A stretch of DNA of 64,000 bases from a virus (Duplodnaviria; Caudoviricetes): positions 1 through 64,000 of the IMG/VR virus record IMGVR_UViG_3300045391_005708. One strand, 5' to 3'. Positions 14,514-63,930 of this stretch are shown here, one piece after another. The notes below the pieces were generated by a model. The model was given only the letters and a program-made list of their open reading frames with translations. It did no database searches and had not been told where the DNA came from. Position numbers and translations under genes: made by a program. Position 1 is the first letter of the stretch, and each line of letters begins with the position of its first letter.

Positions 14514-15230
14514 GTGGCCAAGCGAGTCGAGTTGATCCCGAGCAGCGACCCGCGGCTGGGCCGCCACGTCGACCACGACGAGCGGAGCCGGTCGTTCGCC
14601 CTCGTGGCGGGCGTGGACAGGTCGGCCTGGGTCGACAGGCGGGTGCGGGTCTACGACCCGTCGCCCAACCCCAACCAGACGGTCGGCAACTGCACCGTGT
14701 GCGCCAAGGCCGTGCAACTCAACGCGGCCGGGAACCGGCTGGCGGGCGTCCGGCTGAGCATGGGGTGGGCGATGCTGGCCTACGGGTGGGAGACGGCCCA
14801 CGACGAGTTCCCCGGCCAGTACCCGCCCGACGACACGGGCTCGTCCGGGCTCGCCGCGTGCAAGACCGCGCAGCACCTCGGCGCCGGGGGCCAGTACCAG
14901 TGGATCTTCGGGGGCGCCGACGAGGTGGTCGCGAACGTCATGACCGGCAAGGTGGTCAACGTCGGGACCGCCTGGTACGACGACATGTTCACCGGCTGGA
15001 GGTCCTACTACGGCCTGCCGGTGGTCCGGCCGGGCGGGGGCGTCGCGGGCGGCCACGAGTGGGCCGTGCGGGGCTACAGCGTGAGCAGCGACCGCGTGCT
15101 GGCCCGGTGCTGGTGGGGCGAGCCGGACGGCAGCCTCGACGTGCACAAGGACTTCTGGGTCGCCCGCGGGGACCTGGAGGACCTGCTGCAGGACCAGGGC
15201 GACGCCCACTGGCAGATGAGGGCCGGGTGA
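14514..15230 (+). CDS. Papain-like cysteine peptidase
   Basis: NQ..GNCT (oxyanion Gln and catalytic Cys), DTGSS, GGHEW (His), RCWWG in place of the usual NSWG. Confidence 0.65.
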   Translation: MAKRVELIPSSDPRLGRHVDHDERSRSFALVAGVDRSAWVDRRVRVYDPSPNPNQTVGNCTVCAKAVQLNAAGNRLAGVRLSMGWAMLAYGWETAHDEFPGQYPPDDTGSSGLAACKTAQHLGAGGQYQWIFGGADEVVANVMTGKVVNVGTAWYDDMFTGWRSYYGLPVVRPGGGVAGGHEWAVRGYSVSSDRVLARCWWGEPDGSLDVHKDFWVARGDLEDLLQDQGDAHWQMRAG

Positions 15231-15811
15231 TCACGACGGTCACGCCGTCGATCCCCGTCCGCGGGGACCACGGCGGCATGCTGGAGCGGGCCCTGGCCAG
15301 CATCCGGGCGCAGACCCTCCCGCCGAGCGAGGTGGTCGTGGAGTTCGACGAGTTCCGGCAGGGCGCGGCGGCGACCCGGCAGCGCGGCCTGGAGAAGGTC
15401 GCTACCGACTGGGTGGCCTTCCTGGACGACGACGACGAGATGAAGCCCTGGCACCTGGAGACGCTGGCACGCGCGGCCGAGGAGTCCGGCGCCGACTACG
15501 TGTACTCCTGGTACGAGGTCAGCGGCGGCCTCGACCCCATGTGGCAGTTCTTCGGCCAGCCCTGGGACGACGCGGCCCCGCACCAGACGACCATCACGAC
15601 CCTGGTGAGGACCGACCTCGCGCAGTCAGTGGGCTTCGGCGGCGAGCCCGAGCCGGACCCGAACGGGGGCGGGGCCTACGTCTCCGGCGAGGACTACCGC
15701 TTCACGCTGGGCTGCCTGGCCGCGGGCGCCAGGATCCTCCACGTGCCCCAGGTCACCTGGATCTGGCACCACCACGGGGCCAACACGAGCGGCCTGCCCG
15801 ACCGCTGGTGA
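15227..15811 (+). CDS. Glycosyltransferase family 2
   Basis: LERALASIRAQT, GAAATR..GL..V.TDWVAFLDDDD, W.WHHHG.NTSG. Confidence 0.88.
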   Translation: MITTVTPSIPVRGDHGGMLERALASIRAQTLPPSEVVVEFDEFRQGAAATRQRGLEKVATDWVAFLDDDDEMKPWHLETLARAAEESGADYVYSWYEVSGGLDPMWQFFGQPWDDAAPHQTTITTLVRTDLAQSVGFGGEPEPDPNGGGAYVSGEDYRFTLGCLAAGARILHVPQVTWIWHHHGANTSGLPDRW

Positions 15812-15829
15812 AGCGGTTCCGCTGTTCCG

Positions 15830-15858
15830 CTGCGTCCTGCTTCCGCACGTGGTACGAT
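15830..15858 (+). promoter_or_regulatory. Putative promoter CTGCGT-17-TACGAT for the sortase operon
   Basis: 17-bp spacing; resembles TTGCGT-17-TATGCT at 17600; GAGGAAACC follows at 15903-15911. Confidence 0.5.
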
Positions 15859-15917
15859 CCAACCGCCGGTCCGTCCGTGGGGACGGGCGCAACCGGCGAC
15901 GAGAGGAAACCCTGGAA

Positions 15918-16982
15918 ATGAGACGCATCTTCGCGACCGCCCTGGCGGCCGCCCTGGTGTCGCTCGGTCTGGTGGCCGCGACCCAGGTCGCGGCGTCGGC
16001 GCACACCCCTCAGGTGAGCGCGGACTGCCAGGGCCTGCACGTGGCCCTGAGCAACTACCGGACCGGCGAGGCCGGTCCGAACGTCTGGTACAACTGGTCC
16101 CCGAACAAGGACCAGGGGTCGTTCGACGGCCCGCCCGACTGGCCGACCGACGCGCGCGGCACCTGGCACGAGCACGACAACAATGGAGGCCCCGAGCAGG
16201 GGACGTTCGGGACGTTCTCGACCTCGGACGGCAACGGCCGGGCCTCGTGGTTCCACCGGGAGCACGGCGAGGCGGCCGGGACGAACCACGTCACGGTCGT
16301 CGTGGACGGCGCGGCCGTGACGGACGAGGACTTCACCGGCTCGTTCAGCCAGGACTACCCCTGGGACGACACCGAGGGCCACACCTTCACGGTCACCGTG
16401 ACGGCGTGGGACGACCCGACCGGCGAGAAGGGCTACACCTTCACCGAGTCCGGCAGCCAGGACGCCTGCGCCCAGCCTCCGGGCGAGGCCAGCGCGACCG
16501 TCGACCTGGACACGGCCGCCGACTGCGACTCGTCCAGCACGGTCACCGACACGGCCGAGCACGCGGCGCTGACCTCCAACGGCGGCGTCCTGGACGAGTC
16601 CGTGGGCGACCACGTGGCGACGTTCACGGCCGACGCGGGCTTCGCCTTCGACGGCCAGCCGACCCTCGACGTGCCGTACACGATCGAGGCCGCGACCGGC
16701 GGCTGCACCCCGCCGCCCTGCCAGGGCGACGGCTGCAACCCGCCGCCTCCCCCGGGCTGCACGCAGCACTGCAGCCCCGCGCCCCCGCCGCACGGCAACC
16801 CGCCGCCGAAGCACCCGGCCTCGCCGGGCACGCCGACCGTGGTGGACGCCGGGCTCCCTGCGGGCGGGCGGCACGACGACCGGGGCGGCCTCCTGGCCCT
16901 CCTGGGCGCGTGCCTGGGCGGCGTCCTCGCGGCCACCGGCCTCACCCTGGCGCACCAGCGCCGCGTGAAGGCGGGCCGCTGA
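15918..16982 (+). CDS. Cell-surface protein, putative sortase substrate
   Basis: Signal peptide (MRRIFATALAAALVSLGLVAATQVAASA), beta-rich domains, Pro/Cys linker, TPTVVDAGLPAGG, C-terminal TM helix and basic tail RRVKAGR. Confidence 0.8.
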   Translation: MRRIFATALAAALVSLGLVAATQVAASAHTPQVSADCQGLHVALSNYRTGEAGPNVWYNWSPNKDQGSFDGPPDWPTDARGTWHEHDNNGGPEQGTFGTFSTSDGNGRASWFHREHGEAAGTNHVTVVVDGAAVTDEDFTGSFSQDYPWDDTEGHTFTVTVTAWDDPTGEKGYTFTESGSQDACAQPPGEASATVDLDTAADCDSSSTVTDTAEHAALTSNGGVLDESVGDHVATFTADAGFAFDGQPTLDVPYTIEAATGGCTPPPCQGDGCNPPPPPGCTQHCSPAPPPHGNPPPKHPASPGTPTVVDAGLPAGGRHDDRGGLLALLGACLGGVLAATGLTLAHQRRVKAGR

Positions 16983-16983
16983 G

Positions 16984-17568
16984 GTGGGGCGCCTGCCCGG
17001 TCTCCTCGTCGCCCTCGGGCTGGCTGTCGCGCTGACGACCGCCCTCCCCTGGCTCGTGGACGGCCCCGGGCGGGCGCCCTCCGAGGCGCCTGCGGCCGCG
17101 CCCCCGTCGCGGCCGCAGGCGCCGACCTCCCGGCCGCAGGGCGGCCCGACCATCTCCCCGTCCAGCCGCCCCCCGGAGCGGCTGAGGCTGTGGCACTACG
17201 ACGCCCCCGTGGTGCCCGTCCGGCCGGTCGGCGGCGTGCTCACGCCCCCGGCCGACGCCTCCGTGCTGGGCTGGTGGGGCCGACCGGCCTGCGCCCGGCG
17301 CGGCGCCACGCTCCTGACCGGCCACACGGTCGCGGGGACCGGCGGCGAGTTCGGCGACCTGGCCGACGTTCCCCTCGGCGCGAGGGCCGACGTGTCCGGC
17401 TGCCCCTACCGCGTGGCCAGCGTCCGGCAGGTCCCCTTCTCGGGCTGGCGCCCGGGCCTGCTGGCCCCGACCGGCCCGCCCCGCCTCGTGCTCGTCACGT
17501 GCTCCGGCTACCGGGGCGGCGGCGTGTACACGCGGAGCACCGTCGTCGTGCTCCGGCCCGCCGCCTGA
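16984..17568 (+). CDS. Class F sortase
   Basis: N-terminal TM anchor, P-rich linker, L.PP.D...GWW, ATLLTGHT (His), F.DL, RLVLVTCSG (Cys), YTRSTVV. Confidence 0.88.
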   Translation: MGRLPGLLVALGLAVALTTALPWLVDGPGRAPSEAPAAAPPSRPQAPTSRPQGGPTISPSSRPPERLRLWHYDAPVVPVRPVGGVLTPPADASVLGWWGRPACARRGATLLTGHTVAGTGGEFGDLADVPLGARADVSGCPYRVASVRQVPFSGWRPGLLAPTGPPRLVLVTCSGYRGGGVYTRSTVVVLRPAA

Positions 17569-17599
17569 CCCGGGCGGACGGGAAAACCTCGCCAAAGAC

Positions 17600-17628
17600 T
17601 TGCGTTTCTGACCTGGACGTGTTATGCT
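17600..17628 (+). promoter_or_regulatory. Housekeeping-sigma-type promoter TTGCGT-17-TATGCT
   Basis: Canonical spacing in an AT-richer intergenic stretch; GAGGAAACCG RBS at 17649-17658. Confidence 0.65.
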
Positions 17629-17658
17629 TCTGCCAACAGCACGACCGAGAGGAAACCG

Positions 17659-17898
17659 ATGAACGAGAACCTGACCTCGCCCCGCTTCCCCCTCAAGGGG
17701 CAGCCCGTGGGCCGCAACCTGTACCCCGTCTACGACGGCGACGCCCTCCTGGGCTTCGTCGTGAGCCGCGGCCGCATGTGGACCCACGTCGCGGTTGCCG
17801 ACCCGGCCGACGTGCCGCAGTCGTACGACCTCGTCTTCTCCGCGCCGACCAAGCGCGCGGCGATGACCAACCTGTCCTCCGCCACCAAGAACGCCTGA
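17659..17898 (+). CDS. Hypothetical protein
   Basis: GAGGAAACCG immediately before ATG. Confidence 0.75.
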   Translation: MNENLTSPRFPLKGQPVGRNLYPVYDGDALLGFVVSRGRMWTHVAVADPADVPQSYDLVFSAPTKRAAMTNLSSATKNA

Positions 17899-17910
17899 GA
17901 GGAAACCGAG

Positions 17911-18720
17911 ATGCCCAGAGTCAACACCGTCGACCGAGCCCGCCAGCGCTACGCGATGGTCCCGAAGACCGACGAGGAGGGCAACGCCCTCTACACCGAG
18001 CAGACCAAGAAGGGCAAGACCTTCCGCCGCGCGCTGACCGTGCAGGACCGGACCCGGCCCCTGCCGAACCTCCGGTGCGACTTCCCCGGCTGCGCGATCG
18101 ACGGCGGGGAGATCCTGGTCGGCAAGCCGTATAAGTTCATCACGGTCCGGCCCGGCGGCCGCGGCTCCGTGCAGAAGAACCGGCACCCCGAGCACCCGTC
18201 CTGGCAGCCCTGGGAGTACAGCAACAGCGTGCGCGCCGAGGCCGCCCGCCTGGTGCACGACATGGGGGAGACGGTCAACTCGTACGAGTTCACCGCCGAG
18301 GAGGACTTCGACAGCCTGCGCGACGAGTTGGCCGAGCAGGCCCAGGCGTTCCTGGACGAGCGCGAGGAGGCCGTGGACAACATGCCCGAGGGGCTCCAGG
18401 ACGGCTCCGAGGCGGCCGAGTACCGCGACTCCGCCGAGGAGTGGGTCCAGGAGATCGAGAACGCCGACAGCCCCGACGAGGAGTACCACGCCGAGTGCGA
18501 GGACTGCGAGGAGGGCAAGGTCGAGTGCGACAGCGACTTCCACGACGGCACTGACCAGGGCGAGGAGCAGTGCCCGGAGTGCGGCGGGACCGACACCAAC
18601 CCCGAGGACGTGGACTGCGCGTCCTGCGACGGCACCGGCCGGACCGAGGAAGTGAACGAGGACTGGGCCGAGGCCGCCCGCGAGGCGCTGCAGGAGGCGG
18701 TCGACTCCCTCCAGATCTGA
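17911..18720 (+). CDS. Acidic hypothetical protein with DnaJ-like CxxCxGxG Zn-finger repeats
   Basis: GAGGAAACCG at 17899-17908; CEDCEEG, CPECGGT, CASCDGTG. Confidence 0.75.
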   Translation: MPRVNTVDRARQRYAMVPKTDEEGNALYTEQTKKGKTFRRALTVQDRTRPLPNLRCDFPGCAIDGGEILVGKPYKFITVRPGGRGSVQKNRHPEHPSWQPWEYSNSVRAEAARLVHDMGETVNSYEFTAEEDFDSLRDELAEQAQAFLDEREEAVDNMPEGLQDGSEAAEYRDSAEEWVQEIENADSPDEEYHAECEDCEEGKVECDSDFHDGTDQGEEQCPECGGTDTNPEDVDCASCDGTGRTEEVNEDWAEAAREALQEAVDSLQI

Positions 18721-18728
18721 CCCTCGAC

Positions 18729-18760
18729 GAGGCCCCCGGAGCGACCGCTCCGGGGGCCTC
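18729..18760. terminator. Bidirectional terminator-like hairpin where the two arms converge
   Basis: Perfect 14-bp stem GAGGCCCCCGGAGC / GCTCCGGGGGCCTC with a 4-nt loop. Confidence 0.75.
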
Positions 18761-18913
18761 TAAAGTTCAGCTGTACTCACTCCGAGAGTGGCCCAGAAAC
18801 GTACCGCTCTCCGACGCAGGGTCCAAACGACACCGGGGTATCGCCCCCGCCCCCGCGTCCGGGAGGGCCTAGGCCCTGCGCGACCCTGGTACCGTCCTGG
18901 CCCGGCCGTGGGC

Positions 18914-19138
18914 CTACGGTCGGCCTGTGAGCCGGAGCCGCGCCAGGGCGACCAGGAGGACGACCAGGACGGGCACCAGGACGGACAGCCACGCCTCGTG
19001 CCACCACCCCCAGGCCAGGAGCGCGCCCGCGGCCGAGCAGGCGGCCATGCCCACCCGCCAGGCGACCTCCGCCCAGCAGGTCGGGTCGGACAGGGCCTGC
19101 CTCCAGCCCTGGAACTCAGTCGAGACGCTTCGCCACAT
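18914..19138 (-). CDS. Membrane protein
   Basis: Two TM segments; last gene of the - arm. Confidence 0.6.
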   Translation of the reverse strand: MWRSVSTEFQGWRQALSDPTCWAEVAWRVGMAACSAAGALLAWGWWHEAWLSVLVPVLVVLLVALARLRLTGRP

Positions 19139-63801: not shown

Positions 63802-63930
63802 GGCCGGTCATCCTCTCCGAGGTCGTGTCGCCGCGCGTCTCCCGGTCGTCGGGGTCGGCCGCGGGCCGGACCGCCCGATCCTACCGCCGCCGGGCGCCGG
63901 GCGGGGCGGCTTGCTGGTTCCCCCTGCGGG

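What the first reader, a model, noticed from the sequence alone, without database searches (positions are those of the whole stretch)
15830..17568. Phage-encoded class F sortase with its own cell-wall substrate
Seen: a two-gene unit with its own promoter. The first gene encodes a Sec signal, beta-rich domains, a Pro/Cys stalk, a sorting-like signal TPTVVDAGLPAGG (16830-16868), a TM helix and a basic tail. The second gene, 1 nt downstream, is a sortase with His and Cys catalytic motifs. Established: class F sortases occur beside their substrates in Actinobacteria. Inference: the phage covalently displays a protein on the infected or lysogenic host wall, for receptor masking, superinfection exclusion or adhesion, possibly glycosylated by the adjacent cluster. 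A complete sortase system in a phage early arm is unusual.
Basis: partly seen in the sequence, partly recalled or inferred. Interest (0 to 1): 0.8.

Follow-up and report, generated by a model that had tools for sequence, protein, structure and literature searches.

The report
Phage sortase with its own substrate
A complete, apparently non-integrating soil actinobacterial phage carries a divergent class-F-like sortase and, just upstream, the one secreted protein built for it, probably to staple that protein to the infected cell's wall through an unusual PTxVDAG tag instead of LPXTG.

Summary
At 15918-16982 lies a 354-aa secreted protein: signal peptide, two Ig-like beta domains, a Pro/Cys stalk, PTVVDAGL, a TM helix and a basic tail. 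One nucleotide downstream (16984-17568) lies a 194-aa membrane-anchored protein with a sortase fold, His114 and Cys173. The window is a complete 80.8-kb phage without a recognisable integrase.

The sorting signal is (V)PTx[VI][DNE]AG(L), not LPAGG. That motif ends 94 of 144 distinct upstream ORFs beside related sortases. It is almost absent from other ORFs. The relatives are chromosomal (nearly all named ones Nocardioidaceae) or sit on six other phage or phage-like contig types, two of them CheckV-complete genomes.

In many relatives the substrate stops one residue after the Gly, with no membrane anchor. That argues for ligation rather than shedding.

The enzyme is class-F-like but scores below the curated cut-offs. 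It is the only one of 72 aligned relatives with Ser in place of the class-F Asn, so its activity is uncertain.

Wall display is inferred. Lysogenic expression and glycosylation by the neighbouring cluster are not supported.

This scan already noted the cellular VPTAVDAG system and a phage class-F sortase on other DNA. An October 2026 preprint reports SrtB modules in huge gut phages. I class this as a new variant of a known kind.

The parts
15830..15858 (+). Promoter-like element CTGCGT-N17-TACGAT in the 106-nt gap after the GT2 gene
   Evidence: Read from the sequence. It resembles TTGCGT-N17-TATGCT at 17600 and the CTGCG..TGCTTCCGCAC region at 63930. L004 has CTGCGTCCGCACGCGGTATCCT before its substrate gene. 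The consensus scan did not call it. Function is unverified.
15901..15910 (+). Shared phage RBS tag GAGAGGAAAC, 7 nt before the ATG
   Evidence: There are 5 copies in the window against 0.06 expected. The only exact copy in the 13.6-kb L004 locus also precedes its substrate gene.
15918..16982 (+). Substrate gene, 354 aa (P0051): secreted, wall-sorted Ig-like protein
   Evidence: ORF and translation. AlphaFold2 model pLDDT 74. Homologues P0052-P0061. No Pfam, NCBIfam or PHROG family.
15918..16001 (+). Sec signal peptide, aa 1-28, ending ASA|H
   Evidence: Sequence. Model helix 2-18.
16002..16685 (+). Beta-rich ectodomain, aa 29-256: two Ig-like sandwiches. The first carries the conserved module W.W/FSPN..GP.DGPP.FP.D.RGTW..GGP.Q..GTF..G..SWFHR (about aa 52-133).
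   Evidence: Strands 30-256. Only generic Ig/FnIII matches, Z up to 8.2. The module is found in 253 cluster representatives at E<=0.001 and has no Pfam model. Substrates of the phage/END clade share it.
16686..16832 (+). Pro/Cys-rich stalk, aa 257-305
   Evidence: Sequence. pLDDT below 50 and no secondary structure.
16833..16856 (+). Sorting motif PTVVDAGL (Pro306-Leu313). The scissile bond is inferred to be Ala311|Gly312.
   Evidence: The motif is conserved in 94 of 144 upstream ORF tails beside related sortases. It is the only credible copy in the whole 80.8-kb phage. The cleavage site is inferred from LPXT|G and GVDTG.
16857..16982 (+). Spacer PAGGRHDDRGG, hydrophobic helix (aa 325-345), basic tail HQRRVKAGR, and the stop
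   Evidence: Sequence. Model helix 324-352. Relatives with a tail have 34-50 aa after the Gly (median 43) and a median of 3 Arg/Lys in the last 12 residues.
16984..17568 (+). Class-F-like sortase gene, 194 aa, GTG start 1 nt after the substrate's stop
   Evidence: Pfam Sortase E 2.8e-5. NCBIfam class F is the best and only hit. 50 homologues all carry PF04203. AlphaFold2 pLDDT 84 and the top 50 PDB matches are all sortases.
16996..17055 (+). N-terminal hydrophobic signal-anchor (aa 5-24), followed by a Pro-rich linker to aa 65
   Evidence: Sequence. It is conserved in P0002.
17323..17325 (+). Catalytic His114 (LLTGHTV)
   Evidence: Invariant in 72 of 72 aligned relatives.
17500..17502 (+). Catalytic Cys173 (LVLVTC)
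   Evidence: Invariant in 72 of 72.
17533..17538 (+). Arg184-Ser185. Ser185 occupies the column of SrtA Arg197 and of the class-F Asn.
   Evidence: 71 of 72 relatives have Asn here and the window alone has Ser. The column equivalence comes from the profile alignment to S. aureus SrtA and from the alignment to canonical class F sortases.

Best explanation
Genes 15918-16982 and 16984-17568 form a dedicated sortase-substrate module carried by a virulent-looking phage, probably of Nocardioidaceae.

Proposed sequence of events:
1. Both proteins are made from one message during infection. This is inferred from the promoter-like element, the phage's own RBS tag and the 1-nt gene spacing.
2. Both are exported by Sec.
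3. The substrate is held in the membrane by its C-terminal helix and basic tail. The sortase is held by its N-terminal anchor.
4. The sortase recognises PTVVDAG. Cys173 attacks the Ala311-Gly312 bond (inferred by analogy with LPXT|G and GVDTG).
5. The acyl-enzyme is resolved by an amine of the wall precursor. In Nocardioides this is expected to be the glycine bridge on LL-diaminopimelate (from knowledge, not tested).
6. The two Ig-like domains end up covalently fixed to the host peptidoglycan on a Pro-rich stalk of about 50 residues.

Shown here: the fold, the His/Cys pair, the substrate architecture, and a strong, specific association between this sortase clade and the motif in both cells and phages.

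Inferred: catalysis by this particular copy, the cleavage site, the acceptor, and the purpose. The most likely purpose is altering the infected cell's surface, for example to mask receptors against superinfection or against loss of progeny on debris, or to promote adhesion.
For: Sortase fold: model pLDDT 84, and the top 50 Foldseek PDB hits are all sortases at probability 1.0.

Catalytic residues: His114 and Cys173 are invariant in 72 relatives.

Substrate: it has a signal peptide, an ectodomain, a stalk, the motif, a TM helix and a basic tail.

Motif association:
- The motif P[TSN]x[VI]x[AGS]G ends 94 of 144 distinct upstream ORFs next to related sortases.
- Among 1242 other ORFs, 40 carry it, and 38 of those are further motif-bearing ORF tails, nearly all with TM helix and basic tail.
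- Position frequencies are V73 of 95, T83, A59, V/I, D54/N15/E14, A89, G, L57.

Distribution:
- Besides the window, the pair occurs in six other phage or phage-like contig types: L004 (syntenic), L006, L008, L010, L012, L013. Two of them are CheckV-100% genomes.
- It also occurs in ordinary chromosomal contexts, and the named chromosomal records are nearly all Nocardioides or Marmoricola.

Ligation rather than release: at least 14 relatives have substrates that stop one residue after the Gly (...DAGL*) and have no anchor. Removing only Gly-Leu makes sense only for transfer to an acceptor.

Class F link: canonical class F sortases have neighbours that hit the NCBIfam GVDTG sorting-domain model NF058571, so V-D-[TA]-G is the class's kind of signal.

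Integration into the phage:
- The pair is retained at 54-60% identity in syntenic L004.
- The phage's own RBS tag precedes the substrate gene in both.
- There is one sortase and exactly one motif-bearing protein in the whole phage.
Against: - No experiment exists for this clade or for its signal.
- The window's enzyme is the most divergent of its clade. It differs at 13 of 44 strongly conserved columns, including the class-F Asn (Ser185 here, Asn in 71 of 72). It sits on a long branch (0.55 against 0.16 for L004). It may therefore be weakened.
- It scores below the Pfam and NCBIfam cut-offs.
- The substrate tail hits no curated sorting-domain model.
- The cleavage site and the acceptor are analogies.
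- The promoter was not called by the consensus scan.
- Whether a lytic infection leaves time for wall incorporation is unknown.
- The host was not identified directly.
Confidence: 0.66

Rival explanations
1. The module family is real, but this phage's sortase copy is catalytically impaired. The substrate then stays a membrane-tethered surface protein, or is processed by the host's own class-F-like sortases.
For: Ser185 replaces an Asn present in 71 of 72 relatives. 13 of 44 conserved columns differ. The branch is long, and the loop at about aa 146-165, just N-terminal of the Cys-bearing strand, is diverged. Two Nocardioides genomes searched carry 4-5 matches to the class F model each.
Against: His114, Cys173, Arg167 and the GHT/TC motifs are intact. 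The reading frame is open with no frameshift. The catalytic domain models at pLDDT above 90. An Arg sits next to Ser185 and could substitute. The substrate keeps a perfect motif.
Confidence: 0.17
2. The enzyme acts as a sheddase. It cuts the signal to release the ectodomain into the medium, and nothing is attached to the wall.
For: Sortases hydrolyse their substrates slowly when no acceptor is present (general knowledge). No acceptor has been identified here.
Against: In at least 14 relatives the substrate has no membrane anchor and ends one residue after the Gly. Release is then pointless, and only ligation explains the conserved tag and the coupled enzyme.
Confidence: 0.07
3. The pair is a passenger 'moron' copied from a Nocardioidaceae chromosome. 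It has no role in infection and no selection acts on it in the phage.
For: Close relatives of both genes sit in ordinary chromosomal contexts. The window's sortase evolves fast. In several phages the pair sits at junctions typical of accessory genes, beside lysis or tail-fibre genes.
Against: The pair is kept in seven phage or phage-like contig types counting the window, three of them CheckV-complete genomes. Within this lineage it is kept at only 54-60% identity with the catalytic residues and motif intact. It uses the phage's own RBS tag.
Confidence: 0.06
4. The sortase polymerises the substrate into a pilus-like fibre or joins it to another protein, not to peptidoglycan.
For: Among the top structural matches are class C pilus sortases. 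The substrate has Ig-like domains, as pilins do.
Against: No pilin motif (YPK) and no conserved lysine was seen in the substrate or its relatives (by inspection). There is a single substrate gene. Structural matches to class A and E sortases are equally good.
Confidence: 0.04

Closest known systems
Class F sortases (NCBIfam NF033748) paired with 'GVDTG sorting domain' proteins (NCBIfam NF058571); database models without experimental test
   Same: Actinobacterial. The substrate gene lies beside the sortase. The motifs GH... and L.L.TC are present, and the SrtA-Arg column is Asn in the clade (PMC6998099). The signal core is V-[DE]-[TA]-G followed by a spacer, a TM helix and a basic tail.
   Different: The window's clade scores 18-76 bits against the 166-bit cut-off. 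It has GHTVHTGGG where canonical members have GHVDS..GP. Its signal is PTx[VI][DNE]AG with Ala before the Gly, and it does not hit NF058571 even at E<=10. The window copy has Ser, not Asn. It is phage-borne.
Phage-encoded sortase B with adjacent PXTG substrates in gut huge phages (bioRxiv 10.64898/2026.10.24.761521, Oct 2026)
   Same: A phage carries a sortase. [quoted passage not shown] Display on the host surface is the proposed role.
   Different: Those are class B enzymes with a His-Cys-Arg triad in phages above 200 kb of Bacillota from animal guts. This one is class-F-like with a non-LPXTG signal in phages of about 56-83 kb of soil Actinomycetota. Many of its relatives have anchor-less substrates.
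Propionibacterium (Cutibacterium) acnes SrtF, per the reviews read here the first and only class F sortase studied biochemically (Di Girolamo et al. 2019, as cited in PMC8225981 and PMC13251363)
   Same: It is called class F, is actinobacterial, and is a membrane-anchored cysteine transpeptidase.
   Different: It is a housekeeping enzyme reported to use LPXTG like class A. The window's pair is a dedicated two-gene unit with PTVVDAG.
Class E sortases with LAXTG substrates (for example S. coelicolor SrtE1/SrtE2 and the chaplins)
   Same: Wall anchoring in high-GC Gram-positive bacteria. Some relatives of the substrate's N-terminal module carry LAXTG or LPXTG tails.
   Different: A different class (NF033747 gives no hit for the window sortase at E<=0.01; 19.5-27.8 bits for two cellular relatives) and a different signal.
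Phage surface-modifying exclusion proteins such as T5 Llp or the TP-J34 Ltp lipoprotein (from general knowledge; functional analogy only)
   Same: A phage-encoded exported protein placed in the host envelope during infection.
   Different: Those are lipoproteins that act non-covalently. There is no homology, and no exclusion function has been shown here.

Membership tests
Sortase superfamily (Pfam PF04203) | Eight-stranded beta-barrel sortase fold | tested here: met
   AlphaFold2 pLDDT 84.4, catalytic domain above 90. The top 50 Foldseek PDB hits are all sortases at probability 1.0.
Sortase superfamily (Pfam PF04203) | Catalytic His and catalytic Cys in the (T)LxTC motif | tested here: met
   His114 and Cys173 (LVLVTC) are invariant in 72 of 72.
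Sortase superfamily (Pfam PF04203) | Catalytic Arg after the Cys strand (SrtA Arg197) | tested here: not met
   The column is Ser185 in the window and Asn in 71 of 72 relatives. Arg-to-Asn is typical of class F (PMC6998099).
Sortase superfamily (Pfam PF04203) | Score at or above the Pfam gathering threshold | tested here: not met
   24.3 bits against 26.6. All 50 homologues carry a precomputed PF04203 hit.
Class F sortase (NCBIfam NF033748) | Score at or above the curated cut-off of 166 bits | tested here: not met
   18.4 bits for the window. Relatives score 46-76. Canonical members score 175-212.
Class F sortase (NCBIfam NF033748) | Asn in place of the catalytic Arg (Y..N.VV.A) | tested here: not met
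   The clade meets it (71 of 72), but the window has Y-T-R-S-T-VVV.
Class F sortase (NCBIfam NF033748) | Adjacent substrate with a V-D-T-G type signal (NF058571 GVDTG_CTERM) | tested here: inconclusive
   The window has V-D-A-G followed by a TM helix and a basic tail, but gives no hit to NF058571 at E<=10. Neighbours of canonical class F sortases hit it at 15.7-33.6 bits.
LPXTG-type cell-wall sorting signal (TIGR01167) | [quoted passage not shown] | tested here: met
   Sequence and model.
LPXTG-type cell-wall sorting signal (TIGR01167) | LPXTG pentapeptide or a model hit | tested here: not met
   There is no LPXTG. LPAGG is not conserved. No TIGR01167 hit.
Phage sortase-substrate module (bioRxiv 2026 SrtB type) | Sortase of class B with a PXTG substrate immediately upstream in a phage genome | tested here: not met
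   The gene order and the phage origin are met. The class and the motif are not.
Covalent wall anchoring (function) | Cys-dependent cleavage of the signal and linkage to peptidoglycan | not testable with these tools
   This needs biochemistry. See the next steps.

The most novel reading that the evidence does not exclude
Non-integrating phages of Nocardioidaceae use a private class-F-type sortase to ligate a secreted Ig-like protein covalently onto the wall of the cell they are lysing. In most relatives this protein carries no membrane anchor and ends ...PTxIDAG-L. If so, covalent remodelling of the host surface would be a lytic-cycle strategy (exclusion of competitors, or protection of progeny from debris). 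The anchor-less 'motif plus one residue' design would be a second, undescribed way of feeding proteins to sortases.
Probability: 0.3. Interest if true: 0.8.

Novelty: new variant of a known kind. Interest (0 to 1): 0.62.

Why it matters
- Class F sortases have had no assigned function since they were defined (PMC13251363, PMC6998099). A compact phage module with one enzyme and one substrate is about the simplest system in which to test what this class recognises and what it attaches proteins to.
- It extends phage-encoded sortases, reported only in an October 2026 preprint for SrtB in huge gut phages, to another sortase class, another host phylum and ordinary-sized soil phages.
- The PTxVDAG tag is not captured by any curated model, so genome annotation misses these surface proteins.
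- The anchor-less substrates challenge the textbook requirement for a membrane-retention tail.

Tried and rejected
- LPAGG as the sorting motif: rejected. It is absent from the syntenic relative and from all other relatives.
- GTG 15849 as the start of gene 1: ATG 15918 is preferred because it follows the RBS tag and opens directly with the signal peptide.
- Prophage origin of the closest chromosomal copies (L099, L100, L101, L166): rejected. Their neighbours are acyl-CoA dehydrogenase, aldehyde dehydrogenase, PaaX, RibD_C, MEDS/LuxR, NIF3, glutamine synthetase and NAD synthase.
- A frameshift artefact as the cause of the diverged loop at aa 146-165: no alternative frame restores the consensus.
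- Cultured-phage relatives: megablast of 15000-19000 and tblastn of the window sortase, of P0009 and of a canonical class F sortase against 50,697 GenBank phage records all found nothing. PHROGs has no family for either protein.
- Single-sequence PDB search: only spurious low-complexity hits to viral glycoproteins. The profile search found sortases.
- Fold of the substrate: no specific match, only generic Ig/FnIII sandwiches (Foldseek E above 0.001; VIA Z up to 8.2). The Atlas gave Ig-like leads only.
- Integrases: no PF00589 or PF07508 match in the phage.
- A PF04203 search of the phage by the six-frame tool found nothing, which shows how divergent this copy is.
- Literature: searches for sortase with Nocardioides and with actinobacteriophage found nothing relevant.
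- The tree is a quick IQ-TREE run with a midpoint root. I use it only for clustering, not for direction of transfer.
- Unpublished genomes: the tally includes G008, G016, G025, G031 and G037. No claim here rests on them, and their loci L191 and L194 were left out.
Full report
**What is there.**
- The window is the first 64 kb of an 80,758-bp IMG/VR virus record with direct terminal repeats (64 bp) and CheckV completeness 100%.
- It has about 72% G+C and encodes a family A DNA polymerase, tape measure, tail fibre, major head and portal proteins. It is a real phage genome.
- No tyrosine integrase and no large serine recombinase was found in the whole record.

**Gene 1.**
- It most likely starts at ATG 15918, 7 nt after GAGAGGAAAC. 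That tag occurs 5 times in the window against 0.06 expected, each time just before a start codon.
- It encodes 354 aa:
  - a signal peptide (aa 1-28, ASA|H);
  - a beta-rich ectodomain (aa 29-256);
  - a Pro/Cys stalk;
  - PTVVDAGL (16833-16856);
  - an 11-residue spacer;
  - a 21-residue hydrophobic helix;
  - the tail HQRRVKAGR.
- The AlphaFold2 model (pLDDT 74) agrees segment by segment.
- Its ectodomain gives only generic Ig/FnIII-type matches.

**Gene 2.**
- It starts at GTG 16984, 1 nt after the stop of gene 1.
- It has an N-terminal hydrophobic anchor, a Pro-rich linker and a 127-residue domain.
- That domain models at pLDDT above 90. It matches only sortases among the top 50 PDB hits, all at probability 1.0.
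- His114 (LLTGHTV) and Cys173 (LVLVTC) are invariant in an alignment of 72 relatives.

**Which sortase.**
- Sequence models are weak for this copy: Pfam Sortase 24.3 bits (gathering score 26.6) and NCBIfam class F 18.4 bits (cut-off 166).
- Relatives score 46-76 bits, with class F always the best model.
- I aligned it with canonical class F enzymes that pass the cut-off. Loci from genomes flagged unpublished were excluded. The clade shares the Y..N.VV.A signature.
- The Asn lies in the column of S. aureus SrtA Arg197. This agrees with the published statement that class F replaces Arg by Asn (PMC6998099).
- The clade is therefore class-F-like but a distinct subfamily. It has GHTVHTGGG where canonical members have GHVDS..GP.
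- The window's own copy is the outlier. It differs at 13 of 44 strongly conserved columns. It alone has Ser at the Asn column, with Arg184 next to it. It sits on a long branch. No frameshift explains this.

**The signal and its association with the enzyme.**
- The substrate's homologues showed that LPAGG is not conserved. The syntenic relative has VDAGLAGDQGG, while T[VA]VDAGL is conserved.
- I then fetched 80 metagenomic and 80 genomic loci encoding relatives of the sortase.
- The same-strand ORF ending just before the sortase carries P[TSN]x[VI]x[AGS]G in its last 80 residues in 94 of 144 distinct cases.
- Among 1242 other ORFs in those loci, 40 carry it. Of those, 38 are further motif-bearing ORF tails, nearly all motif + TM helix + basic tail, and 2 look spurious.
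- The consensus is V-P-T-A-[VI]-[DNE]-A-G-L.
- No NCBIfam model recognises this tail.
- Canonical class F sortases have neighbours with (G)GV[DEA]TG tails that hit NF058571, the 'GVDTG sorting domain'. V-D-A-G is therefore a variant of the class's catalogued but untested signal.
- By analogy with LPXT|G, the scissile bond is probably Ala|Gly. This is inference.

**Two designs.**
- In 80 of the 94 motif-bearing tails, 34-50 residues follow the motif (spacer, TM helix, basic tail), as in the window.
- In 14 the protein ends one residue after the Gly (...DAGL*), usually overlapping the sortase start. Several more were missed by the strict pattern, for example VAVNAGL*, EVVGGL* and VGVDGGL*.
- In most of these anchor-less pairs the sortase has a lipoprotein signal instead of a signal anchor.
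- Taking only Gly-Leu off a secreted protein makes sense only if the acyl-enzyme is passed to an acceptor. These pairs therefore argue for ligation, not release.
- The substrate's conserved N-terminal module (about aa 52-133) has no Pfam model and occurs in 253 cluster representatives at E<=0.001.
- Of the 149 best hits inspected, 56 have L[PA]xTG tails, 13 have PTxVDAG tails and at least 12 end ...AGL. Many others end ...EEG[LFM] or ...ETGL.

**Phage and cell.**
- Named genomic relatives are nearly all Nocardioides or Marmoricola. With the 72% G+C this points to a Nocardioidaceae host. This is inference.
- In a quick maximum-likelihood tree a 25-row clade (SH-aLRT 92) holds the window, all viral contigs and all anchor-less pairs. 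It sits among cellular sequences.
- Four members of that clade lie in plainly chromosomal contexts. The subfamily is therefore shared between cells and phages.
- Other phage or phage-like contigs with the pair:
  - L004 is syntenic with the window, from the polymerase through the sugar-modifying genes to the pair.
  - L006 is 56.8 kb.
  - L008 has the pair beside tail-fibre genes.
  - Three IMG/VR records carry it. Those of 55.7 and 82.7 kb are CheckV-complete and lack a tyrosine integrase.
- No relative was found in 50,697 GenBank phage records, and PHROGs has no family for either protein.

**Is it used by the phage?**
- The pair is retained between the window and L004 at only 60% (sortase) and 54% (substrate, C-terminal half) identity. 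The motif, His and Cys are intact in both.
- Both substrate genes follow the phage RBS tag and a related upstream element.
- The phage has exactly one credible motif-bearing protein.
- The link to the neighbouring glycosylation genes is seen only in L004. Elsewhere the pair travels alone.

**What is known.**
- Reviews and a 2026 study state that class F roles are unknown and that only P. acnes SrtF, which uses LPXTG, has been characterised.
- Earlier notes of this scan describe three related things on other DNA: the chromosomal VPTAVDAG system of Nocardioides, a phage class F sortase with a tail-less substrate, and the NF058571 link. I re-derived the first independently before reading it, and I tested the NF058571 link.

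**Verdict.**
This is a phage-borne member of a divergent class-F-like sortase subfamily together with its dedicated PTxVDAG substrate.
- It probably fixes an Ig-like protein to the host wall during lytic infection.
- Catalytic competence of this copy, the cleavage site, the acceptor and the purpose are all untested.

Noticed in passing
L008:1020-1913, L010:2487-3857, L012:3465-3869, L017:1259-2356, and L019, L022, L024, L027-L036, L099-L101, L166: Anchor-less sortase substrates end exactly one residue after the motif's Gly (...DAGL*, ...NAGL*, ...KAGL*, ...VGGL*). They often overlap the sortase start, and the sortase in most of these pairs has a lipobox (for example LAATGC, VVSGC, LTACGG).
   Followed up: partly
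P0064-P0207: The substrate's N-terminal module (W.W/FSPN...SWFHR, no Pfam model) forms a family of 253 cluster representatives. Their C-termini carry L[PA]xTG, PTxVDAG, or anchor-less endings such as ...EEGL...EEGF...ETGL and ...QEGM. This suggests one passenger domain served by several sortase classes.
   Followed up: partly
L188:456-1085, L192:533-1330, L195 (minus strand), L199:416-1261: Neighbours of canonical class F sortases end in (N/P)GGV[DEA]TG followed by a TM helix and a basic tail. They hit NCBIfam NF058571 GVDTG_CTERM at 15.7-33.6 bits (cut-off 29).
   Followed up: partly
window 14514-15230 (+): A 238-aa protein between a methyltransferase and the GT2 gene matches PHROG 16701 'peptidase' (E 3e-21) and no Pfam family. 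It is conserved at the same place in L004.
   Followed up: no
window 17911-18720 (+): A 269-aa very acidic protein with C-terminal CxxC pairs. It gives a weak DnaJ CXXCXGXG-type hit (E 0.007) and also follows the GAGAGGAAAC tag.
   Followed up: no
window 3347, 15901, 17647, 17897, 63981: The tag GAGAGGAAAC precedes five start codons on the + strand (0.06 expected by chance).
   Followed up: partly
L010:4689-4997 (-): In the 55.7-kb IMG/VR phage the pair is convergent with an ORF whose C-terminus (GKWGNGDTR...) looks like a lysin wall-binding repeat. In L008 the pair abuts small membrane proteins and tail-fibre genes. In the window it lies about 1.3 kb from the minus-strand lysis cassette.
   Followed up: no
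BFVD hits to model m7d3894e7b050: Two weak structural matches (probability 0.98, E 0.002-0.007) to uncharacterised viral proteins. One is from Streptomyces phage TP1604 (A0A0E3M3L1, 198 aa). These may be unannotated sortase-like proteins in cultured phages. Sequence searches did not confirm them.
   Followed up: no
L012:3465-3869: In the 82.7-kb phage the substrate is only 134 aa: a lipoprotein-type signal, a long (PPTT/PPTS)n repeat and the ending EVVGGL*. This is a nearly passenger-less substrate.
   Followed up: no
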